Positions 16,846-32,000 of a stretch of 32,000 nucleotides of DNA are shown here, piece by piece; the first letter of the stretch is position 1; each line of letters begins with the position of its first letter. Both the position numbers and the translations under genes were made by a program. The notes beneath the pieces were generated by a model that searched no databases, was not told the origin of the DNA, and saw only the letters and a program-made list of their open reading frames with translations. Where the stretch lies: positions 630,001-662,000 of the forward strand of contig NC_018655.1 in NCBI RefSeq assembly GCF_000299365.1. Direction: 5' to 3'. This stretch comes from Candidatus Nitrosopumilus koreensis AR1. Its GTDB lineage: Archaea > Thermoproteota > Nitrososphaeria > Nitrososphaerales > Nitrosopumilaceae.

Positions 16846-17005
16846 CGTCGCCAGGTGCTGGTTCTCGGTTCATCTCTTTTTCGTGTGACTCGAAAAATTC
16901 TTTGTGTTCTGATTTTTGATGTTCTCTGAGTTTTTCTAAATTCTCAAACCCCTCATGACACAGATAGCATTTTGGCTTGTGTTCGTCTACTAGAGGAAGT
17001 ACCAT
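16832..17005 (-). CDS. C2H2 zinc-finger protein (57 aa), below ORF-track threshold
   Basis: My translation is MVLPLVDEHKPKCYLCHEGFENLEKLREHQKSEHKEFFESHEKEMNREPAPGDVTVF. It contains the classical C-x2-C-x12-H-x4-H finger. Confidence 0.6.
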   Translation of the reverse strand: MVLPLVDEHKPKCYLCHEGFENLEKLREHQKSEHKEFFESHEKEMNREPAPGDVTVF

Positions 17006-17060
17006 GGTATGATATCTTTGCTTGGCTACTTATTTCTTGAGCCTAACTAAGGAATATATC

Positions 17061-23119: not shown

Positions 23120-25312
23120 ATGGTAAAATTCAAGTCAACCAGTGAGGTCCTGAAAATTATCAAAAACAAGGATCAGATCCGAAACTTTGGTGTTATTGCT
23201 CACGTTGACCACGGAAAGACTACCATGAGTGACAGTCTCTTGGCTTACTCTGGAATTATCGCTCCATCAGCTGCTGGAAAGGCACTTGCAATGGACTTTG
23301 ATAAAGAAGAGCAACAAAGAGGAATTACAATTTATCAGGCAAACGTTACTTTGCTGTTTTCACAGAAAGGAAAAGAATATGTCATTAACATGATTGATAC
23401 CCCTGGACACGTAGACTTTAGTGGAAGGGTAATTCGTAGCCTTAGGGCAATTGATGGTGCAGTGGTTGTATGTGATGCTGTTGAGGGTATAATGACTCAG
23501 ACTGAAACTGTAACTAGAATGGCACTAGAGGAGAGGGTAAAACCTGTATTGTTTATCAACAAAGTAGACAGACTCATCAAGGAACTGCGATTGACTCCTG
23601 AAAAGATGCAGGCACAATTAGCAGAAGTCGTTTCAAACTTTAATCAATTAATTGACACATATGCAGAACCTGAATACAAAGAAAAGTGGAAGGTATCAAT
23701 TCAGGATGCAAGTGTCACATTTGGTTCTGCAAAGGACAGATGGGCAATTAACATAGATTTGATGAAAGAAAGAGGAATCACATTCAAAGATGTCATTGAT
23801 GCATATACAAATGAAAAAGTAGAAGAACTAGTAGAGAAAGCACCACTAGCTGATGCAGTTCTTGGAATGGTTGTAAAGCATCATCCTGCTCCACACGAGG
23901 CAGTCCAGTACAGAATTCCACAAATCTGGAAAGGTGATTTGGAGTCTGATGTTGGCAAAGCACTACTTGCATGCGATGATACTGGTCCGACAATTATGAT
24001 GATTGTAAACATGGTCTTAGATCCTGCAGCAGGTCCTGTTGCAATTGGAAGACTGTTCTCTGGAACAATCAAAGACGGACAAACTATCAACATTATAGAT
24101 GAAAAACGTGAAGGAAGAGTTCAGTCTGTAAACTTTTTCATGGGAAACCAAAGAGAGCAAGTTGGTGAGCTTGGCGCTGGAAACATTCCTGCATTATTAG
24201 GATTAACTGAAGCTAGAGCAGGAAACACATTATCATCTGTTAAGGGAATTCAAATGTTTGAAGGTGTAAAGTATGTCTCTGAACCTGTTGTTCAAGTTGC
24301 AATCGAGCCAAAACATCCTAAAGATTTACCTAAACTAGTCGAAGTTCTAAAACAACTAACAATTGAGGATCCTAACCTTATCGTAAAGATTGATGAGGAG
24401 AGCGGTGAGACAATTGTTGCAGGAATGGGTGTGTTACACCTTGATGTTGCCACTCACCGTATCCAGGATGCCAAAGTCGAGATTGTTACATCTGAACCTC
24501 TGATTAACTACAGAGAGACAGTAAAGTCTGCATGTGAGCCAATCATGGCAAAATCTCCAAACAGACACAACAAGATCTTCATGAAAGTCGAGCCACTAGA
24601 GCCTGCAATTGCAAACATGTTAAGAACAGGCGAAATCAGCGACATGAAAGACAAAAAAGTTGTTGCTGACTTGCTAAAGGGCGCTGGATGGGATACTGAT
24701 ACAATTAAGAGAGTGATGAAGTTTGATTCTCGCGGCAATGTCTTGATTAACGGAACAAAAGGTGTTCAATTTGTACAAGAGTCAACTGACTCTATTAACT
24801 CTGGATTTGAAGAAGTAATGAAAGAAGGACCTCTCTGCAGAGAGCAGATGAGGGATTGTAAATTCACGTTTACTCACTTTGTACCTCACGAGGACACTGC
24901 ACACAGGGGTTTGTCTCAACTGGGACCAGCTTCTCGTCGTGCATGCATGGGTGCATTGCTTACTGCAGGAACTGCAGTGCTAGAGCCAACTCTGGCAATT
25001 GAGGTTCGTGTGCCAACTGACTTGGTTGGAAACGTCGCCACTGTTCTTTCTGGAAAACGTGGCAAGGTCTTGGACATGTCACAAAAAGGCGCATCAAGTA
25101 TCGTTACAGGTGAGATTCCAGCCTCTGAGACATTTACATTGTCTGAAGAGATGAGAGGCCAGACTGCAGGACGTGCTACATGGAATACTTCCTTTAAGGC
25201 ATGGACTGAGGTTCCAAAATCAATGCTTGCAACAGCTGTTGCTGATATCAGAAAGAGAAAGGGACTAGCACCAGATCCTCCAAGAGCAGAAGAGTTTATT
25301 GATAAAGAGTAA
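23120..25312 (+). CDS. fusA: translation elongation factor aEF-2
   Basis: GTPase motifs AHVDHGKTT, DTPGH and NKVDR. Diphthamide loop HEDTAHRG. 730 aa. Confidence 0.97.
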   Translation: MVKFKSTSEVLKIIKNKDQIRNFGVIAHVDHGKTTMSDSLLAYSGIIAPSAAGKALAMDFDKEEQQRGITIYQANVTLLFSQKGKEYVINMIDTPGHVDFSGRVIRSLRAIDGAVVVCDAVEGIMTQTETVTRMALEERVKPVLFINKVDRLIKELRLTPEKMQAQLAEVVSNFNQLIDTYAEPEYKEKWKVSIQDASVTFGSAKDRWAINIDLMKERGITFKDVIDAYTNEKVEELVEKAPLADAVLGMVVKHHPAPHEAVQYRIPQIWKGDLESDVGKALLACDDTGPTIMMIVNMVLDPAAGPVAIGRLFSGTIKDGQTINIIDEKREGRVQSVNFFMGNQREQVGELGAGNIPALLGLTEARAGNTLSSVKGIQMFEGVKYVSEPVVQVAIEPKHPKDLPKLVEVLKQLTIEDPNLIVKIDEESGETIVAGMGVLHLDVATHRIQDAKVEIVTSEPLINYRETVKSACEPIMAKSPNRHNKIFMKVEPLEPAIANMLRTGEISDMKDKKVVADLLKGAGWDTDTIKRVMKFDSRGNVLINGTKGVQFVQESTDSINSGFEEVMKEGPLCREQMRDCKFTFTHFVPHEDTAHRGLSQLGPASRRACMGALLTAGTAVLEPTLAIEVRVPTDLVGNVATVLSGKRGKVLDMSQKGASSIVTGEIPASETFTLSEEMRGQTAGRATWNTSFKAWTEVPKSMLATAVADIRKRKGLAPDPPRAEEFIDKE

Positions 25313-25434
25313 AAATAGAATCCCCCCATTCCGTTCCTAATTCACTGCTGTTTTTCGTTATGACTAGAGAATGATTTGGATTATGATTTGTTGCAATCTT
25401 TTGAAATACTAGGTATTGAATAATTTTTTATTAA

Positions 25435-25935
25435 ATGAAACCTATTACAATTTTCAGATTTTTTTCACCAATCAGATATATTGAAATTATTGCAGTTCTT
25501 TCTGCTTTTCAAATTTTAGATATTGCTTGGCAATCAGACGTTATCATCTTCAATTTTTTCTTTCCGGTAATTATCGGAAGTGCTGCATTTGATGCAGTGT
25601 TTCACAAGGATGGTTTCAAAGCTGGTTTCAAAAGTGCAGGGATAAAATACTATACAGGAATGGGGATCCAATTTGTAGGAAGCGCTGTTTCAGCATTAGC
25701 CAGTTTCAATACAGATCCAGAAAAAATTCCAGTCATTATCATGTATACTGTGCTTCTGTTAGGAATAGGCGGAGCACTAGAAGGATTTCATTTTTTTTCT
25801 GAAAAGAAACTCAAAAACATTGTATTAACACCTGTTCAAAAAATATTGGCATTAATTGGACTTACTCTTCTGATATTTTTCTTTGGGCTTTACACAGTTC
25901 TTGAATTAGTTCCACGCACACCATGGTTTAATTGA
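25435..25935 (+). CDS. integral membrane protein (casposon cargo)
   Basis: 166 aa with about 5 hydrophobic helices. No motif recognised. Confidence 0.6.
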   Translation: MKPITIFRFFSPIRYIEIIAVLSAFQILDIAWQSDVIIFNFFFPVIIGSAAFDAVFHKDGFKAGFKSAGIKYYTGMGIQFVGSAVSALASFNTDPEKIPVIIMYTVLLLGIGGALEGFHFFSEKKLKNIVLTPVQKILALIGLTLLIFFFGLYTVLELVPRTPWFN

Positions 25936-25942
25936 TTATGTT

Positions 25943-26986
25943 TTGACACTCAAAAATCAGAAAAACCACTACAATGTAAAATTCCTTAAAGGCTACGGTC
26001 ACTCTATCTCGGTAAAAGATTCCAAAATAATTCTAAAGTCAAACCACGACCCATTTTCTCCACCAGAACAAGAAGAATGGTTTGTCAAAAACATGCCATA
26101 TGAGAAAATAGTTCTTTCAGGCAAAGGATATGTCTCAACTGAAGCATTATCATTACTTTCAGAGAACAATCGCAATGTCATTTTGTTAGACAATCACGGA
26201 AAGCCTGTTACATTCTGCAATGGCATGATGGATTCTCTCACTGCCACAAAATACAGAATGGCACAATATGATACATTCCGAAATCCTGAGAAATGTGAGT
26301 ATCTGCGTAAGCAGATTATATCTGCAAAGAAAGAATCTCAACTAAAGTTATTACGATTAATTGGAAGTGAAATTTCAGAACTTCCAGATTCAGAACACAT
26401 TTCAGCCAAAGTCTATTGGACAGAATTTGCAAAATTTATCCCTGAAAAATATCAATTTCATTCCAGAAACCAATCTCACATCACATCATCAAAAAATAAC
26501 GCAACTGACATCATCAATGCTCTGCTAAACTACGGATATTCTGTACTTGCAGGAGAAATTTCCAAGTTTGTATGTGGATTTGGTCTTGACCCGTACCTTG
26601 GATTCATGCATCGTTCTCATACAGGATTTCAGCCATTGGTGTATGATATCATAGAACCGTTCCGATGGTTAGTGGATTATACTGTTTATTCCATGGCAAA
26701 TCATAGTTCCACAAGACAGAGAATTAAACTCAAAGAGTATAGTTTTACAAAAGATGGAACTGTAGTTTTGGAATATTCTTTGATCAAGAGATTTTTGGAG
26801 ATGTTAGAAAGACAGTTTTCTCAAGAGAGAAAGTATTCGTTTAGACATGGAAAGAAGACAAAGGATGGTTTGAAATCCGTTCAAGAAATTACTGTTGTAA
26901 AGATTATAATTCAAAATTTAGTAGAATACAGTACAGGAAAACAAAAAAGTTTAGAATCTAATAATTTTGCTTTTTTCGATTTCTAA
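25943..26986 (+). CDS. cas1: Cas1-family integrase (casposase)
   Basis: Cas1 core motifs NATDIINALLNYGYSVL, GLDPYLGFMH and LVYDIIEPFRWLVDY. TTG start in the track; the first ATG is about 50 codons in. Confidence 0.9.
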   Translation: MTLKNQKNHYNVKFLKGYGHSISVKDSKIILKSNHDPFSPPEQEEWFVKNMPYEKIVLSGKGYVSTEALSLLSENNRNVILLDNHGKPVTFCNGMMDSLTATKYRMAQYDTFRNPEKCEYLRKQIISAKKESQLKLLRLIGSEISELPDSEHISAKVYWTEFAKFIPEKYQFHSRNQSHITSSKNNATDIINALLNYGYSVLAGEISKFVCGFGLDPYLGFMHRSHTGFQPLVYDIIEPFRWLVDYTVYSMANHSSTRQRIKLKEYSFTKDGTVVLEYSLIKRFLEMLERQFSQERKYSFRHGKKTKDGLKSVQEITVVKIIIQNLVEYSTGKQKSLESNNFAFFDF

Positions 26987-27402: not shown

Positions 27403-27597
27403 CTAATATTGTCTATATTTCTGAAAAGATCCTTTTCTTTTACAGTTGGCACATTTTGCATTCTTTGACCAGCCCTCAACTGACCAACCATGACCAATTC
27501 TAACTGTGATTACTCTGTCACAGTTTGTGCAGATTACTTTTACCTGATAGGATTTCTTTGGGTCAGGTTCTCCTTTTAACCACTCTTTGAGCCCCAC
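27403..27597 (-). CDS. small four-Cys zinc-ribbon protein
   Basis: CTNCDRV ... CANCKRKG in 64 aa. GTG start. Preceded by motif copy 2. Confidence 0.55.
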   Translation of the reverse strand: MGLKEWLKGEPDPKKSYQVKVICTNCDRVITVRIGHGWSVEGWSKNAKCANCKRKGSFQKYRQY

Positions 27598-27643: not shown

Positions 27644-27940
27644 TTAGGGGAAAATCTTATTCAATTCTGGGCTTTCCTCAATCTGTTTTTCTAGATTCAC
27701 ACACATATCACGATTAAAATCAGGATATTTCCAACAAAACTCTCTTGCCTCTTGGATGTATTCTAGTTCGCATTTGATCCATTCATCTCCTGATGCTCGC
27801 AAAATTTGGCATTCAGTATGACCAGTAGATAGTCTCTCTGCCCATTGTTGTTTTTGATATTCCTCATTGGCAATATATGCAATAATTGCAATTAGAAGTA
27901 TTCCTCCAACAACCCCAAGAATAACTTGAATTCGATTCAC
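27644..27940 (-). CDS. N-terminally anchored small protein
   Basis: 98 aa with the TM helix ILGVVGGILLIAIIAYI, then a Cys-containing soluble part. GTG start. Preceded by motif copy 3. Confidence 0.55.
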   Translation of the reverse strand: MNRIQVILGVVGGILLIAIIAYIANEEYQKQQWAERLSTGHTECQILRASGDEWIKCELEYIQEAREFCWKYPDFNRDMCVNLEKQIEESPELNKIFP

Positions 27941-28010: not shown

Positions 28011-28808
28011 ATGAAATTTGTACTATTGTTAATTTTGATAGGGATGATTACTCCTGTATTTGCACAAGAATCATCTTTTGATGAACAATTAATGAATAGT
28101 ACAGAATATTCGAAAATCATAGATAGGTTATACCTCCTTGAAAATGAAAATAAACAACTTGAAAATTTAATTCATAATTTTGATGATGGAATTTCTTCAA
28201 AATTATCTAAAATTGATGAATCTTTAATTCAATCTGGAGATGTTGCAAACAAATCCCTTTGGTTGGGACTCTATATTTCCATGGTATTTGCAGGAATTGC
28301 CATTGCAGCAACAATAATTTATTCTATAAAATTAGGATCTCAAACCAAATTAATTGAAACTGATATCAAAACACGGATCAGACCAATTTTAAGTCGAAAA
28401 GAATTACGAAAAAAAATTACTAATTCAACAGAACAACACGTAGGTGAATTACACACACTTTCTAAACAAAAAGCTCTATTTCATTTTCAGAATACAGGTA
28501 CATTGCCTGCGGTAAATATATCTCGGAATTATTATGCTGAGATTAGAGAAACACCTTCCAATGAAATCAAACTAGATCCTACAAAATATGTGGATGCCTT
28601 CAAAATGGCCTCATTGGCCCCAAATGAATACTATAGTACAGATATTTTTTGGCTTGATCCATGTTTTGATGATGCAGTGGATAAAAATACATGTTATTTT
28701 GGATTGATAATTTGGTATCATGATTCAAAAGGTACAAGATATCACTATCACATAGAAGGATATTTTGACAAAGGAGAAATGATGTTAAATCACGTAGATA
28801 TGGATTAA
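28011..28808 (+). CDS. membrane protein with signal peptide, coiled-coil-like segment and one TM helix
   Basis: N-terminus MKFVLLLILIGMITPVFAQE and mid-protein TM helix LWLGLYISMVFAGIAIAATIIY. No motif recognised. Confidence 0.6.
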   Translation: MKFVLLLILIGMITPVFAQESSFDEQLMNSTEYSKIIDRLYLLENENKQLENLIHNFDDGISSKLSKIDESLIQSGDVANKSLWLGLYISMVFAGIAIAATIIYSIKLGSQTKLIETDIKTRIRPILSRKELRKKITNSTEQHVGELHTLSKQKALFHFQNTGTLPAVNISRNYYAEIRETPSNEIKLDPTKYVDAFKMASLAPNEYYSTDIFWLDPCFDDAVDKNTCYFGLIIWYHDSKGTRYHYHIEGYFDKGEMMLNHVDMD

Positions 28809-29071
28809 ACTTCACAATAAGGGCATTCGACTTCTTCTTTGTGTGATTTAACCAAACTTACAAACTGTGACAAACATTCAGTACAAACATACTTCAGTCT
28901 TTTTCTTTTCTGAGTCTTATAATACATTGCCATAATCCAATTCACTCTTTGAGTTCTAAAATTTCCTTCCTCATCATAATAGTAGATGTGCCATCGCTTC
29001 TTTGTGGATGTTTTGTGTCTGTGGTTTCCTCGATGTGTGTATGTTTTTGACACTGAAACAACTAGTTTCAT
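28805..29071 (-). CDS. small basic four-Cys protein
   Basis: 88 aa. CTEC ... CPYC at the C-terminus, Lys/Arg/His-rich. Co-directional with and downstream of the wHTH gene. Confidence 0.55.
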   Translation of the reverse strand: MKLVVSVSKTYTHRGNHRHKTSTKKRWHIYYYDEEGNFRTQRVNWIMAMYYKTQKRKRLKYVCTECLSQFVSLVKSHKEEVECPYCEV

Positions 29072-29115: not shown

Positions 29116-29730
29116 TTATTTTTTAATTTTAAATTCAGGACGGTCAACATTTAATGAAAATTCTAATTTTCTACTTGATAATATCTGCATCATGACGGGA
29201 TAAACAATTTTGTAATCTTTGTCTTTTCTAACCAAATTAATGATTTTTCTAATTCTTTTTTTGAGTTTTATTCTTTCTTTTTTCAAAGATTCCTCACTAG
29301 GGTTCTCTAATGATTCCAATAAGGACAATTGAGAAATATTTTGTAATGCTAATTGTATTTGAAACAATGCTTCACCAGTTTTTTGCATTGTAGATAATTC
29401 AGAATATCTTTTTTCCAACATTTTTGTATCGTGCTCATCAAACATTGACCACACTAAAACAGATTTTCTCAAATCGTCTGGATTGATTTGCTCTTTTCCC
29501 TCATTAAATGAATACTGTGTTTGTCTCCCAACTTTATTTACAAATATCAGTCCTCTTGAAATTAGTGATTGTATTGCTCTTTGAGCAGTCTTTTTTGCCA
29601 TGTATTTTGGAACAGAAAGATCTAAAATTCCATTATGATGAATATCGGGATTTTTTTGTATAATTTCCAGTATTTTGAACTCGTATTGAGTCATTTCAGA
29701 AGAATTTGGTCGTAATTGTGCGTAATCCAT
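29116..29730 (-). CDS. winged-helix transcription regulator
   Basis: N-terminal EFKILEIIQKNPDIHHNGILDLSVPKYMAKKTAQRAIQSLISRGLIFVNKVGRQTQYSF is a MarR/wHTH-like pattern. C-terminal helical region. Confidence 0.65.
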   Translation of the reverse strand: MDYAQLRPNSSEMTQYEFKILEIIQKNPDIHHNGILDLSVPKYMAKKTAQRAIQSLISRGLIFVNKVGRQTQYSFNEGKEQINPDDLRKSVLVWSMFDEHDTKMLEKRYSELSTMQKTGEALFQIQLALQNISQLSLLESLENPSEESLKKERIKLKKRIRKIINLVRKDKDYKIVYPVMMQILSSRKLEFSLNVDRPEFKIKK

Positions 29731-29785: not shown

Positions 29786-30019
29786 ATGACTTTGAAGAAA
29801 ATCAAACCCAAAGACATGATTTTAGAACCAGTAATTACTGACTTTGGAAACAGAAAGGTATCGCAACAGAATTTTTCAAAGATTGTTGCTCTGCCAAAGA
29901 CTGCATTGGATAACTGTGGCATAACCACAGATGTCAATGTAAAACTGGTTCAGTTTGATGGAGAAAAGTTTCTGACACTTTCTCCAGTAATTGAAAAAGG
30001 AGGTGATAAAACTGAGTGA
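29786..30019 (+). CDS. AbrB/MazE/SpoVT-like DNA-binding protein
   Basis: NFSKIVALPKTALDNCGITTDVNVKLVQFDGEKFLTLSPV resembles the looped-hinge-helix pattern (compare MazE [38 protein letters not shown], from memory). Confidence 0.5.
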   Translation: MTLKKIKPKDMILEPVITDFGNRKVSQQNFSKIVALPKTALDNCGITTDVNVKLVQFDGEKFLTLSPVIEKGGDKTE

Positions 30020-30346
30020 GACCCTCTATCCTCCATTTTTAAAATGGGGGCAGTACACATCTCAAGACTCTGAGAATCCTGACACCATAGAGCTCAAGGT
30101 TGCTGAAACCAATACCTTTGAGACAGAATTCTCAATCAATGTACTAGCATTGATTAAAGAAAAAAGACATGGAAAGAATACAACGTTAAACTGAAAAACC
30201 ATGATTCAGCAAATGCTTCTTTCCTAAACCAGTGGAACAGGATTGCAAAGTCACTTCACAAAGGAGACATACTGGTTCTCAAGACGTGGCTTGGAACATC
30301 AAAGAATGGAAGAAAAATCAGGAGGTACAGTCTAGAGAAACTCTAG
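29991..30346 (+). pseudogene. hypothetical gene in two frames joined at an A6 run
   Basis: Frame of 29991..30194 (track ORF) plus the frame of 30158..30346, which is 62 open codons (RKKTWKEYNVKLKNHDSANASFLNQWNRIAKSLHKGDILVLKTWLGTSKNGRKIRRYSLEKL) with no ATG/GTG/TTG. The switch is at A6 30160..30165. Confidence 0.45.
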
Positions 30347-30378
30347 ACTCTCCTTTTTTTGACAATAGTGATGGTATT

Positions 30379-30695
30379 ATGGCAGAAGACAAAGATAAAC
30401 TTTTGAAACAGTTAGACGCACTCAAGATTTTTCCAAACAACAAACTAGTAAGAGAATTAAAGAATCAAATTAAAACAAAATTAAAAAATTAGAAATTACA
30501 AAACCCATTCCACCAAAGAAAAATCCAAACCTTACACGCTCAAACAAACTAAAGCGATATCACAACTACATCAGGCAAATCAGAAACAACTTTCCAAATC
30601 TAAAATACAACCAGATAAGAAAACAGTTTGCAAAACGAAAGCGTGGCGATGACGTATCAATTCCTGATGCAGTATGGCAGAATCCGTCCCCGTAA
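30379..30695 (+). pseudogene. hypothetical gene upstream of polB in two frames joined at an A6 run
   Basis: ATG 30379 gives MAEDKDKLLKQLDALKIFPNNKLVRELKNQIKTKLKN*. From 30474 another frame is open for 73 codons to 30695 with no ATG/GTG/TTG (…LEITKPIPPKKNPNLTRSNKLKRYHNYIRQIRNNFPNLKYNQIRKQFAKRKRGDDVSIPDAVWQNPSP). The switch is at A6 30483..30488. Confidence 0.45.
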
Positions 30696-32000
30696 CTGAC
30701 TGCAAGAATCTGAGAAGAGTATTTACAAAAAAGCCTCAGAACAGAGATCCTGCAACATCGCACAAGAGAAGAGTCTATGCAATTGATACAGAAACCTATA
30801 ACGGCAACATCTTTCTGATTGCCGACTCTGATGGGAGATTCTTGGATAAAATCACGCCAAAATCATGCCTAGACTGGCTGTTTTGCAGAAAATATGAGGG
30901 TTCGTGGTGCTTTTTTTATCATCTCGGGTATGATGCAGAAGTAATTCTGAAACTTTTAGGCTCTGAACTATTCAAGTACAAAAATACTGGAAGACTGAAA
31001 TTCTCCTTTGAAAATTACACCATAGAGTATCATCCAAACAAGTGTCTGAAAATATCAAAGGGACATCACTCTGTGATATTTTATGACATTGCGCAATTCT
31101 ATCATGCAAAACTATCTGATGCATATCAAAACAATATCAGAAAACTACCTAAAGAGTATCTTGACATAAAGTCAAAAAGGAGTCAGTTCTCAATTACATT
31201 TTACAAAAGAAACACAAGAAAAATCAGAGATTACTGCATCACAGACTGCAAACTGACAAAAGAGTTGGCAGAGCACTGGATAAAATTATTCCATGATGCA
31301 TTTGGATTCTATCCTGCAAGATGGGTATCCTCTGGATATCTGGCAGAAAAAGTCTTGATCAACAACGGAATCAATTTCCCAAAGTTTGATGATGTTCCAT
31401 ATGATGTTCAGGAGATGGCGTTTTCATGTTACTATGGAGGACGATTTGAAATTACAAAGCGTGGATTTATTGGAACTGCTTACAAGTATGATATCAACTC
31501 TGCATATCCCCATTCCCTGACAAAGATTCCTGACCTGACCAAAGGACGATGGATTAAAAGAAAGTCAATTCACAAAGATGCAAAACTTGGATTCTTTAGG
31601 ATTATTGCAGACATTCCAGACTGCAAGTATATTCCACCGTTTCCGTTTCGTACCAATGGAATTATTATTTTTCCTAGTGGAAAGTTTGAAACGTATGTTA
31701 CATTACATGAACTAAAAGTTGCAGATTCAAAACATTACAAAATTTTGGATTCATATCAGTTCATTCCAAACGGCAAGCCAGTCTATCCTTTTGAGAAATT
31801 TGTTCATTCAATGTATGATAAAAGACTGGAACTAAAGAAAGACGGAAACCCATTGCAGTTGCCAATCAAGATAATTCTCAATTCAATCTATGGAAAGACT
31901 GGTCAGAAAGTCAATAGAATAATGGGAAATCTGTTCAATCCTGTGATTTTTGCAAGTATTACAGGCATGACTCGTGCCTGCCTGTATGACTTTGTGATGC
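30674..32000 (+). CDS. polB: family B DNA polymerase, protein-primed (phi29-like) type, 3' end beyond window
   Basis: Not in the ORF track because it has no stop in the window. My translation from ATG 30674 gives ExoI YAIDTET, ExoII FFYHLGYDAEVIL, ExoIII DYCITDCKL, motif A YDINSAYP and motif B KIILNSIYGKTG. 442 codons are open to the window edge. Confidence 0.92.
   Translation, partial: MAESVPVTDCKNLRRVFTKKPQNRDPATSHKRRVYAIDTETYNGNIFLIADSDGRFLDKITPKSCLDWLFCRKYEGSWCFFYHLGYDAEVILKLLGSELFKYKNTGRLKFSFENYTIEYHPNKCLKISKGHHSVIFYDIAQFYHAKLSDAYQNNIRKLPKEYLDIKSKRSQFSITFYKRNTRKIRDYCITDCKLTKELAEHWIKLFHDAFGFYPARWVSSGYLAEKVLINNGINFPKFDDVPYDVQEMAFSCYYGGRFEITKRGFIGTAYKYDINSAYPHSLTKIPDLTKGRWIKRKSIHKDAKLGFFRIIADIPDCKYIPPFPFRTNGIIIFPSGKFETYVTLHELKVADSKHYKILDSYQFIPNGKPVYPFEKFVHSMYDKRLELKKDGNPLQLPIKIILNSIYGKTGQKVNRIMGNLFNPVIFASITGMTRACLYDFVM

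What the first reader, a model, noticed from the sequence alone, without database searches (positions are those of the whole stretch)
25943..26986. Stand-alone Cas1 homolog with intact-looking catalytic motifs and a long C-terminal extension
The ORF carries the Cas1 core in the correct order. It has a candidate catalytic Glu in DSEHISAKVYW, then NATDIINALLNYGYSVL, the His in GLDPYLGFMH and the acidic residues in LVYDIIEPFRWLVDY. It therefore looks active rather than decayed. About 100 residues follow the core (…RIKLKEYSFTKDGTVVLEYSLIKRFLEMLERQF…), where casposases are reported to carry an extra DNA-binding domain. The longest ORF begins with TTG and the first ATG is about 50 codons in, which would remove the N-terminal beta domain. 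A non-ATG start is therefore likely.
Basis: partly seen in the sequence, partly recalled or inferred. Interest (0 to 1): 0.7.

Follow-up and report, generated by a model that had tools for sequence, protein, structure and literature searches.

The report
Known casposon integrase (NitAR1-C1 casposase)
The ORF is the Cas1-like integrase ("casposase") of the NitAR1-C1 casposon, a self-replicating transposon inserted at the end of the EF-2 gene of the marine archaeon Candidatus Nitrosopumilus koreensis AR1. This exact protein has already been purified and shown to integrate DNA in vitro, so the finding is real but already known.

Summary
The ORF at 25943-26986 (+, TTG start, 347 aa) is a genuine Cas1 homolog (Pfam Cas_Cas1, E 8e-43). 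It is 100% identical to the Ca. N. koreensis AR1 Cas1-family protein. Béguin 2019 cites that gene at CP003842.1:655943..656986, which is the window coordinates plus 630000.

It is the casposase of the family-1 casposon NitAR1-C1. In the window this comprises the 13-bp TSD (25298-25310) overlapping the EF-2 stop codon, a perfect 65-bp TIR (25311-25375) and a protein-primed PolB from 30674 that runs off the window end. The right TIR and TSD lie about 1.5 kb beyond the window.

The catalytic residues E151, H223 and E238 (plus D235) align with M. mazei casposase E162/H232/E247. They are invariant in 35 homologs. The TTG start is conserved in four related casposons.

The "long C-terminal extension" is not supported. 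Residues up to about 330 align to the very end of canonical Cas1 proteins and models, and only a non-conserved 17-residue tail remains. Published work describes family-1 casposases as lacking the HTH domain.

Verdict: already known, low interest.

The parts
23120..25312 (+). Host EF-2 gene (730 aa), the integration target. Its last codons and stop codon overlap the TSD.
   Evidence: ORF. Pfam GTP_EFTU/EFG domains recorded for the same gene. The stop codon TAA is at 25310-25312.
25295..25297 (+). TTT, the minimal 'leader' that the casposase needs upstream of the TSD.
   Evidence: Sequence. The functional assignment comes from Wang et al. 2021 (PMC8464041, abstract).
25298..25310 (+). Left copy of the 13-bp target-site duplication ATTGATAAAGAGT. 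It contains the ATAA 'ruler' at 25302-25305.
   Evidence: Exact match. The second exact copy is at L001 17548-17560, which is window coordinate 33490-33502 and lies beyond the window end. The TSD sequence was defined experimentally in PMC8464041.
25311..25375 (+). Left terminal inverted repeat of the casposon. It is a perfect 65-bp match to the right end, with weaker similarity extending to about 25391.
   Evidence: I1: 97-nt arms, 87% complementary; 65 of 65 identical at the termini. The right TIR is at L001 17483-17547, outside the window.
25435..25935 (+). 166-aa predicted membrane protein ORF inside the casposon. It ends 7 nt before the casposase start and is probably co-transcribed (inferred).
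   Evidence: no Pfam family. One search shows three TM-like segments. AR2 and NF5 casposons carry non-homologous ORFs of about 160 aa with several TM-like segments at the same position.
25943..26986 (+). Casposase (family-1 Cas1 homolog), 347 aa, TTG start. Catalytic codons are E151 at 26393-26395, H223 at 26609-26611 and E238 at 26654-26656, with D235 at 26645-26647.
   Evidence: (100% identical to the Ca. N. koreensis AR1 protein). Biochemistry is in PMC6614799 and PMC8464041.
26958..27359 (-). 133-aa hydrophobic ORF of unknown function. It overlaps the last 29 nt of the casposase gene on the opposite strand.
27403..27597 (-). 64-aa Cys-rich (zinc-ribbon-like) ORF of the casposon.
   Evidence: only weak zinc-finger hits, below cut-offs.
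27644..27940 (-). 98-aa casposon ORF of unknown function.
   Evidence: no family.
28011..28808 (+). 265-aa casposon ORF of unknown function, with an N-terminal signal- or TM-like segment.
   Evidence: no significant family.
28805..29071 (-). 88-aa ORF with a C-terminal zinc-ribbon-like CxxC...CxxC.
   Evidence: Zn_ribbon_8, E 6e-4, below cut-off.
29116..29730 (-). 204-aa ORF with a weak N-terminal winged-helix signal.
   Evidence: HTH_24 E 0.0025, Penicillinase_R E 0.006, both below cut-off. One search shows 28% identity to a 193-aa gene that lies downstream of EF-2 in other Nitrosopumilus genomes.
29786..30492 (+). Small ORFs upstream of polB (77, 67 and 86 aa as read here). Two of them are interrupted by 1-nt deletions in A-runs relative to the near-identical AJVI copy, where they read as 114 and 154 aa. 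The last one is the published candidate terminal protein.
   Evidence: deletions at about window 30160 and 30484. PMC4046053 reports two single-nucleotide deletions in NitAR1-C1 and an appropriately positioned conserved gene that could encode a terminal protein.
30674..32000 (+). [quoted passage not shown] It is cut by the window end.
   Evidence: open frame with YAIDTET, DINSAYP and KIILNSIYGKTG motifs. (PF03175 DNA_pol_B_2, E 6.8e-26, on the full gene L001 14732-16516).

Best explanation
The ORF encodes the casposase of NitAR1-C1, a family-1 casposon about 8.2 kb long (window 25311 to about 33489). The element is inserted at the 3' end of the EF-2 gene of Candidatus Nitrosopumilus koreensis AR1.

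The casposase is a Cas1-fold, metal-dependent integrase, with an N-terminal beta domain and an alpha-helical catalytic domain carrying E151, H223 and E238. By analogy with the solved M. mazei enzyme it probably acts as a tetramer, two dimers in which one subunit of each is catalytic (inferred). It uses the 3'-OH ends of the casposon TIRs to attack both strands of the target 13 bp apart. The target site is read through a short TTT leader and the TSD sequence ATTGATAAAGAGT, with an internal ATAA acting as a ruler. Gap repair then produces the 13-bp duplication, and the EF-2 reading frame is kept intact.

The linked protein-primed PolB is presumed to copy the element. The enzyme has no C-terminal HTH domain and ends like an ordinary Cas1.

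Shown here: identity of the protein, the fold family, conserved catalytic residues, TSD, TIRs, linked PolB, and absence of CRISPR or other cas genes in the window.
Shown by others for the identical protein: site-specific integration in vitro.
Inferred: tetramer geometry, in vivo mobility and the role of PolB.
For: - Family: Pfam Cas_Cas1 E 8e-43. TIGR00287 scores 137 bits, above its cut-off.
- Structures: the best solved-structure match by sequence, profile and fold is the M. mazei casposase 6OPM.
- Identity: 100% identity and full coverage to 'Cas1 family protein [Ca. N. koreensis AR1]' (P0001). Béguin 2019 gives the expressed gene as AFS80663, CP003842.1:655943..656986, which is the window coordinates plus 630000.
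- Numbering: residues mutated by Wang 2021 (D110, R113, K117, K184, Y197, Y234) fall on the same residues in this ORF.
- Catalytic residues: E151/H223/E238 align to M. mazei E162/H232/E247. They are invariant in 35 homologs of 67-85% identity to the window protein.
- Element ends: the published TSD ATTGATAAAGAGT is at 25298-25310, with a second copy 8192 bp downstream. It flanks perfect 65-bp TIRs.
- Polymerase: pPolB PF03175, E 7e-26.
- Context: no CRISPR array, cas gene or tRNA in the window.
- Published activity: PMC6614799 and PMC8464041.
Against: Nothing contradicts the identification. Four caveats apply.
- The right end of the element lies outside the window and was read from the identical contig AJVJ01000024.1.
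- The AlphaFold model is low-confidence (mean pLDDT 62.5, pTM 0.35), so structural statements rest mainly on sequence and profile alignments.
- This copy has two 1-nt deletions that break two conserved small ORFs upstream of polB. The element may therefore not be replication-competent even though its integrase is intact.
- No evidence of in vivo transposition exists in what I read.
Confidence: 0.97

Rival explanations
1. It is a family-2-like casposase whose C-terminal ~100 residues form an additional DNA-binding (HTH) domain.
For: 109 residues follow E238. The segment 290-347 is rich in basic residues, with 11 K/R against 6 D/E. The best PDB hit is a family-2 casposase.
Against: - Query residues up to 329-330 align to the last residues of canonical Cas1 proteins and models: 8D3L 337/343, TIGR04093 329/334 and TIGR03640 335/340.
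- The alignment to 6OPM stops at about chain residue 306-319 of 431, leaving the M. mazei HTH unmatched.
- The last 17 residues are not conserved, and most homologs are about 339 aa.
- The model shows only a beta-hairpin and two helices after the catalytic helix.
- The literature says family 1 has no extra domain.
Confidence: 0.02
2. It is an orphan CRISPR adaptation Cas1 left over from a degraded CRISPR-Cas locus, not a transposase.
For: It passes the generic cas1 equivalog model TIGR00287. Databases name it 'CRISPR-associated endonuclease Cas1'.
Against: - The window has no CRISPR array and no cas2, cas4 or effector genes.
- All CRISPR-subtype Cas1 models score far below their cut-offs.
- The gene lies between TIRs and TSDs together with a protein-primed PolB.
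- Homologs in other Nitrosopumilus genomes have the same casposon context.
Confidence: 0.01
3. The integrase is intact, but this copy of the casposon is a fossil that can no longer replicate or move. The gene would then persist without current function, or be used only in trans.
For: Two 1-nt deletions in A-runs, relative to the AJVI copy, interrupt two conserved small ORFs upstream of polB. One of these is the candidate terminal protein (PMC4046053). The related AR2 casposon has lost its EF-2-proximal TSD and the first 11 nt of its TIR, which shows that such elements do decay in place.
Against: The TIRs are perfect over 65 bp and both TSD copies are identical. The casposase, PolB and other ORFs are intact. 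Homopolymer length differences may be sequencing errors or tolerated. The recombinant enzyme is active (PMC6614799, PMC8464041).
Confidence: 0.25

Closest known systems
NitAR1-C1 casposase of Ca. Nitrosopumilus koreensis AR1 (AFS80663; Béguin et al. 2019, Wang et al. 2021). The casposon NitSJ-C1 is near-identical.
   Same: Identical protein: 347 aa, 100% identity. The gene coordinates are the same modulo 630000. The TSD, leader and TIR sequences match those used in the published assays.
   Different: Nothing; this is the same gene. The AJVI copy differs only by two 1-nt insertions upstream of polB.
Family-2 casposases: Methanosarcina mazei (PDB 6OPM) and Aciduliprofundum boonei
   Same: Cas1 fold and the same E/H/E active site (E162/H232/E247 in M. 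mazei against E151/H223/E238 here). They act as stand-alone integrases without Cas2, use TIR 3' ends as substrates, and produce a TSD of about 13-14 bp.
   Different: Sequence identity is only about 23-24% in the fold alignment. Family-2 enzymes carry a C-terminal HTH that is essential in M. mazei, and it is absent here. Family-2 elements have a different PolB and mostly target tRNA genes, whereas this element has a protein-primed PolB and targets the EF-2 3' end.
CRISPR-associated Cas1 (for example A. fulgidus 4N06, Synechocystis 7CR6, type I-C 8D3L)
   Same: The two-domain architecture, catalytic residues and C-terminal end are the same; the alignment reaches the last residues. The length is similar, about 340 aa.
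   Different: There is no Cas2 partner, CRISPR array or other cas genes. Subtype-specific models are not met. It integrates a kilobase-scale element rather than short spacers (PMC8464041).
Other family-1 casposases of Nitrosopumilales (NitAR2-C1, NitNF5 casposons, N. cobalaminigenes and others)
   Same: Identity is 67-85% to the window protein. They share the conserved TTG start, the same length class, linked pPolB, and an EF-2 target in several cases.
   Different: Cargo genes differ. Orientation relative to EF-2 can be reversed, as in AR2. The C-terminal tail differs.

Membership tests
Cas1 superfamily (PF01867 / TIGR00287) | Profile match above the curated threshold | tested here: met
   Pfam scores 147 bits against a cut-off of 22.3, E 8e-43. 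TIGR00287 scores 137.3 bits against 71.7.
Cas1 superfamily (PF01867 / TIGR00287) | Conserved metal-binding active site Glu / His / Asp-or-Glu | tested here: met
   E151, H223 and E238 (plus D235) align to E179/H249/E264 of chain 6OPM. Those are E162/H232/E247 in native numbering. They are invariant in 35 homologs.
Cas1 superfamily (PF01867 / TIGR00287) | N-terminal beta-strand domain plus C-terminal alpha-helical catalytic domain | tested here: met
   The AF2 secondary structure has strands at 12-82 and helices at 109-330 (low overall confidence). The profile alignment to 6OPM covers profile positions 10-284. The Foldseek top hits are all Cas1 or casposase.
Casposon (Krupovic et al. 2014 definition) | Cas1 gene not associated with a CRISPR array or other cas genes | tested here: met
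   No CRISPR-like tandem array. No cas families among window ORFs. Only the 32-kb window plus 5 kb downstream was examined.
Casposon (Krupovic et al. 2014 definition) | Linked family B DNA polymerase (self-synthesizing) | tested here: met
   pPolB at 30674 to beyond 32000, PF03175 E 6.8e-26 on the full-length gene.
Casposon (Krupovic et al. 2014 definition) | Terminal inverted repeats flanked by a target-site duplication | tested here: met
   Perfect 65-bp TIRs and an identical 13-bp TSD at both ends. The right end was read from the identical contig L001 because it lies beyond the window.
Casposon (Krupovic et al. 2014 definition) | Cas1 has integrase activity on the element ends and target | not testable with these tools
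   Published for the identical protein. Béguin 2019 shows site-specific concerted integration. Wang 2021 defines the 13-bp TSD, the TTT leader and the ATAA ruler.
Family-1 casposons | Protein-primed type PolB (not the RNA-primed type of families 2-4) | tested here: met
   The match is to PF03175 DNA_pol_B_2, the 'organellar and viral' type. [quoted passage not shown]
Family-1 casposons | Compact Cas1 without extra domains (no HTH, no zinc-binding domain) | tested here: met
   The C-terminus aligns to the end of canonical Cas1 proteins and models. Only a 17-aa non-conserved tail remains. No second Pfam domain is found.
Family-1 casposons | Thaumarchaeal host, typically inserted in the 3' end of a protein-coding gene (EF-2) | tested here: met
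   The contig is from Nitrosopumilus. The TSD overlaps the EF-2 stop codon.
Family-2 casposases | [quoted passage not shown] | tested here: not met
   No residues are available for it: the core ends at about 330 of 347. The M. mazei HTH region is unmatched.
CRISPR-subtype Cas1 (I-B, I-C, I-D, I-E, II, V, Cas4-Cas1) | Score above the subtype-specific NCBIfam cut-off and genomic linkage to cas2 and a CRISPR array | tested here: not met
   All subtype models are far below cut-off, for example I-D 96 against 385, I-C 92.5 against 385 and type II 91.7 against 120. There is no cas2 or array.

The most novel reading that the evidence does not exclude
This HTH-less enzyme is reported to be strictly dependent on its leader-TSD target, whereas the M. 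mazei casposase is inactive once its HTH is removed. Target reading in family 1 must therefore be built into the Cas1 core itself. One candidate is the family-conserved basic loop-helix at residues about 294-330 (R296, Y298, G303, K305, T306, K311, Q314). That segment would act as the leader/TSD reader and so functionally replace the HTH. My evidence does not exclude this. It also does not favour it, because the same segment is conserved in ordinary type I-C Cas1.
Probability: 0.15. Interest if true: 0.35.

Novelty: already known. Interest (0 to 1): 0.1.

Why it matters
Casposases are the presumed ancestors of the CRISPR spacer integrase Cas1. The HTH-less family-1 enzyme is the one most like CRISPR Cas1, so it is an important reference point for how a transposase became an immune-memory enzyme.

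That significance has already been realised for this locus. The casposon was described in 2014, and this exact protein was characterised biochemically in 2019 and 2021. The present check adds confirmation from raw sequence and one correction: there is no C-terminal extra domain. It also adds a few small side observations, but no new biology about the ORF itself.

Tried and rejected
- **AlphaFold2 model.** A model built on a 35-sequence alignment gave only a low-confidence result (mean pLDDT 62.5, pTM 0.35). Foldseek correctly ranked 6OPM and Cas1 structures first, but with TM of about 0.28. I therefore did not use the model for residue-level or domain-packing claims. For the C-terminus I relied on profile alignments.
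- **Right TIR and TSD.** I looked for them inside the window. They are not there because the window ends inside polB. I read them instead from the identical contig fetched by exact-protein look-up.
- **Orphan CRISPR Cas1.** Considered and rejected.
- **Extent of a second casposon downstream.** I tried to decide whether the DNA after the right TSD is host sequence or a second casposon. I searched the 158-aa and Fer4 ORFs and the usual EF-2 neighbours among 125 loci. The AR1 downstream ORFs have no homolog in any other locus, and the usual neighbours (193/75/76/141/480-aa genes) are absent within the 3.5 kb available. The extent of the second element therefore stayed unresolved.
- **L042 and L046.** I tried to relate these two loci, which come from the same contig. 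They do not overlap, so their arrangement could not be reconstructed.
- **Promoter scan.** The sigma-70 promoter and terminator scan was not used because the host is an archaeon.

Full report
**Observation**

All five peptide strings quoted are present at residues 149-159, 186-202, 214-223, 232-246 and 260-292. The upstream in-frame stop is at 25907. The only ATG/GTG/TTG codon before codon 51 is the TTG at 25943, and the first ATG is M51 at 26093. The similarity to Cas1 is far beyond chance:
- Pfam Cas_Cas1, E 8.1e-43, 147 bits against a 22.3-bit cut-off.
- NCBIfam TIGR00287 cas1, 137 bits against 71.7.
- Best solved-structure match by sequence, profile and fold is 6OPM, the Methanosarcina mazei casposase.

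**Identity**

An exact-sequence look-up places the protein on two Nitrosopumilus draft contigs. The window is base-for-base identical to one of them, AJVJ01000024.1, over the 16,058 nt they share. The homology search returns a 100%-identical, full-length protein named [quoted passage not shown], found on a 1.64-Mb contig.

Béguin et al. 2019 state that they expressed the Ca. N. koreensis AR1 casposase AFS80663, "coded_by CP003842.1: 655943..656986". That is the window coordinates plus exactly 630,000. The window is therefore, by inference, CP003842.1:630001-662000. The residues mutated by Wang et al. 2021 (D110, R113, K117, K184, Y197, Y234) are the same residues at the same numbers in this ORF. 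The finding is thus the casposase of casposon NitAR1-C1. That casposon was described in 2014 (PMC4046053), and the protein was characterised in vitro in 2019 and 2021.

**Anatomy of the element**

- **TSD.** The experimentally defined 13-bp TSD ATTGATAAAGAGT occurs at 25298-25310. Its last T is the first base of the EF-2 stop codon TAA (25310-25312), and it is preceded by the TTT minimal leader. A second exact copy lies 8192 bp downstream at L001 17548-17560, equivalent to window 33490-33502 and so 1.5 kb beyond the window.
- **TIRs.** Immediately inside the two TSD copies are inverted repeats that are perfect for 65 bp (AAAAATAGAATCCCCCCATTCCG...) and recognisable for about 80-97 bp.
- **Extent.** The element therefore spans window 25311 to about 33489, or 8179 bp.
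- **Gene content.** In order: a 166-aa membrane-protein ORF, the casposase, several small ORFs of unknown function (two zinc-ribbon-like, one weakly winged-helix-like), three small ORFs upstream of polB, a protein-primed PolB (PF03175, E 7e-26; starts at 30674 and runs off the window), and an AlbA_2/Schlafen-domain protein beyond the window.
- **Context.** The window has no CRISPR-like array, no other cas gene and no tRNA, so "stand-alone" is correct.

**Catalytic residues**

In both the pairwise and the profile alignment to 6OPM, query E151, H223 and E238 pair with chain residues E179, H249 and E264. The deposited chain has a 17-residue offset, so these are E162, H232 and E247. Hickman et al. 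2020 name those three as the conserved active-site residues. D235 sits three residues before E238 and is also conserved. All four are invariant in an alignment of 35 homologs of 67-85% identity to the window protein.

**Start codon**

The homologous genes of N. sediminis AR2, N. adriaticus NF5 and N. cobalaminigenes all begin with TTG at the same aligned position (TTG ACx CTx/CAA AAA...). Residues 2-25 are strongly conserved across the family. The N-terminal beta domain aligns to 6OPM from about residue 10. Starting at M51 would delete most of that domain. The published active recombinant protein uses the 347-residue numbering. The non-ATG start is well supported.

**C-terminus**

- The Pfam model ends at query residue 289, but canonical full-length Cas1 proteins continue, and so does the alignment. 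The family profile aligns through position 329 to residue 337 of the 343-residue type I-C Cas1 8D3L.
- The NCBIfam type I-D and I-C models are matched to 329/334 and 335/340 at query residues 329-330.
- The quoted stretch RIKLKEYSFTKDGTVVLEYSLIKRFLEMLERQF aligns column by column with ordinary Cas1 sequence.
- What remains is a 17-residue tail (331-347). It is not conserved among homologs, most of which are 339 aa. It also overlaps an antisense ORF by 29 nt.
- The AlphaFold model, although of low overall confidence, predicts only a beta-hairpin (266-276) and two helices (278-293, 310-330) after the catalytic helix.
- M. mazei casposase keeps its HTH after residue 341 of its core, and that part has no counterpart here.
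- Three papers state explicitly that family-1 casposases are compact and lack the HTH.

**Mechanism**

[quoted passage not shown] The target needs a 3-bp TTT leader and the 13-bp TSD, and an internal ATAA motif sets the second cut 9 bp downstream.
- *Inferred from the M. mazei structure.* A tetramer of two Cas1-like dimers forms, with one catalytic subunit per dimer, and carries out metal-dependent transesterification by the TIR 3'-OH.
- *Inferred from gene content.* The protein-primed PolB replicates the element, perhaps using the small upstream ORF as terminal protein.

**Comparison and novelty**

The protein meets every tested defining feature of the Cas1 superfamily, of casposons and of family 1. 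It fails the defining feature of family-2 casposases (the C-terminal HTH) and the subtype-specific CRISPR Cas1 models. It is not merely a member of a known family; it is the published reference enzyme of that family. The finding is correct, apart from the C-terminal domain, and it is already known.

**Side observations**

1. The sequence directly after the right TSD, outside the window, is not host DNA. It is an approximately 80-nt terminus of a different family-1 TIR type (AAAAAGGCAGTCCCCCCTCCTTACGTACGAAAACA...GATTTGTTGG). It is alignable to casposon termini that follow EF-2 in other genomes, and it is absent from empty EF-2 sites. This suggests a second, possibly decayed, casposon in tandem. 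The 2019 survey said tandem family-1 insertions had been seen only in N. adriaticus NF5.
2. This copy carries two 1-nt deletions in A-runs that break two conserved ORFs upstream of polB, as noted in 2014.
3. The AR2 casposon has lost its EF-2-proximal TSD and 11 nt of TIR, which changes the EF-2 C-terminus.
4. Many thaumarchaeal loci carry a 26-nt copy of the EF-2 3' end next to a casposon TIR, without EF-2 or a TIR upstream. I could not explain this.

Noticed in passing
L001 17561-17640 (equivalent to window 33503-33582, beyond the window end); possible other terminus at L001 19096-19110: Directly after the right TSD of NitAR1-C1 the sequence is AAAAAGGCAGTCCCCCCTCCTTACGTACGAAAACATGCG...GATTTGTTGG. 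This aligns over about 80 nt with the TIR termini of other family-1 casposons (the 'AGGCAAAGCCCCCC' type in L070, L117, L122, L100 and NitNF5). Empty EF-2 sites lack it. It looks like the end of a second, different casposon (or its remnant) inserted in tandem. I did not see this mentioned for AR1 in the papers read. The usual EF-2 downstream neighbours are absent for at least 3.5 kb.
   Followed up: partly
window ~30160 and ~30484 (A-runs); ORFs 29991-30194 and 30232-30492: Compared with the otherwise identical AJVI contig, the window copy has two single-A deletions (A6 against A7). These split two conserved small genes upstream of polB: 114 aa becomes 67 aa, and 154 aa becomes 86 aa. The 154-aa gene is the published candidate terminal protein. 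The difference could be real inactivation, homopolymer sequencing error or slippage-prone sites.
   Followed up: partly
window 25943 (and L003, L004, L005 position 10001): The casposase start codon is TTG in all four family-1 casposons examined (AR1, AR2, NF5, N. cobalaminigenes), despite only 82-84% protein identity to the AR1 protein. A conserved weak start may throttle transposase translation (speculation).
   Followed up: partly
window 25435-25935; L003 9506-10000; L004 9528-10004: Three casposons carry an ORF of about 160 aa with several TM-like segments immediately upstream of, and abutting, the casposase gene. The three proteins show no detectable sequence similarity to each other. N. 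cobalaminigenes has a soluble 301-aa protein at that position instead.
   Followed up: partly
L003 ~17000-17050 (N. sediminis AR2, EF-2 / casposon junction): In AR2 the EF-2-proximal end of the casposon lacks the TSD and the first 11 nt of the TIR (GAATTT|CCCCCCATTTCG). EF-2 therefore reads on into the TIR and has an altered, longer C-terminus (739 aa against 730 aa). That casposon is probably immobilised.
   Followed up: no
L046, L055, L067, L080, L087, L100, L116, L064, L094, L052, L011 (pattern-scan loci): Many thaumarchaeal loci contain a 26-nt copy of the EF-2 3' end ((A)ACGAG TTTATCGATAAAGAGTAAAA) followed by a casposon TIR. The sequence upstream of it is neither EF-2 nor a TIR. The copy is longer than the 13-bp TSD plus 3-bp leader. 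In Nitrosopumilus sp. b1 such a copy (L046) and the genuine EF-2 junction (L042) lie on opposite strands of one contig. This is unexplained.
   Followed up: partly
window 29116-29730 (-) against L003 7387-7968 and homologs in L004, L017, L034, L097: The casposon's 204-aa weakly winged-helix ORF is 28% identical (E 8e-16) to a 193-aa gene. That gene belongs to the conserved cluster found downstream of EF-2 in several Nitrosopumilus genomes, including ones with an empty site. This hints that the 'host' cluster may itself be old mobile-element DNA.
   Followed up: no
window 25295-25320: Leader TTT and spacer-side AAAAA are mirrored by the TIR ends (AAAAATAGAA... / ...TTCTATTTTT). Sequence alone gives a 21-bp direct repeat and cannot place the junctions. 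The 13-bp TSD rests on the published in vitro mapping. The genomic TIR carries five extra A/T beyond the TTCTA motif that the papers call the TIR 3' end.
   Followed up: no
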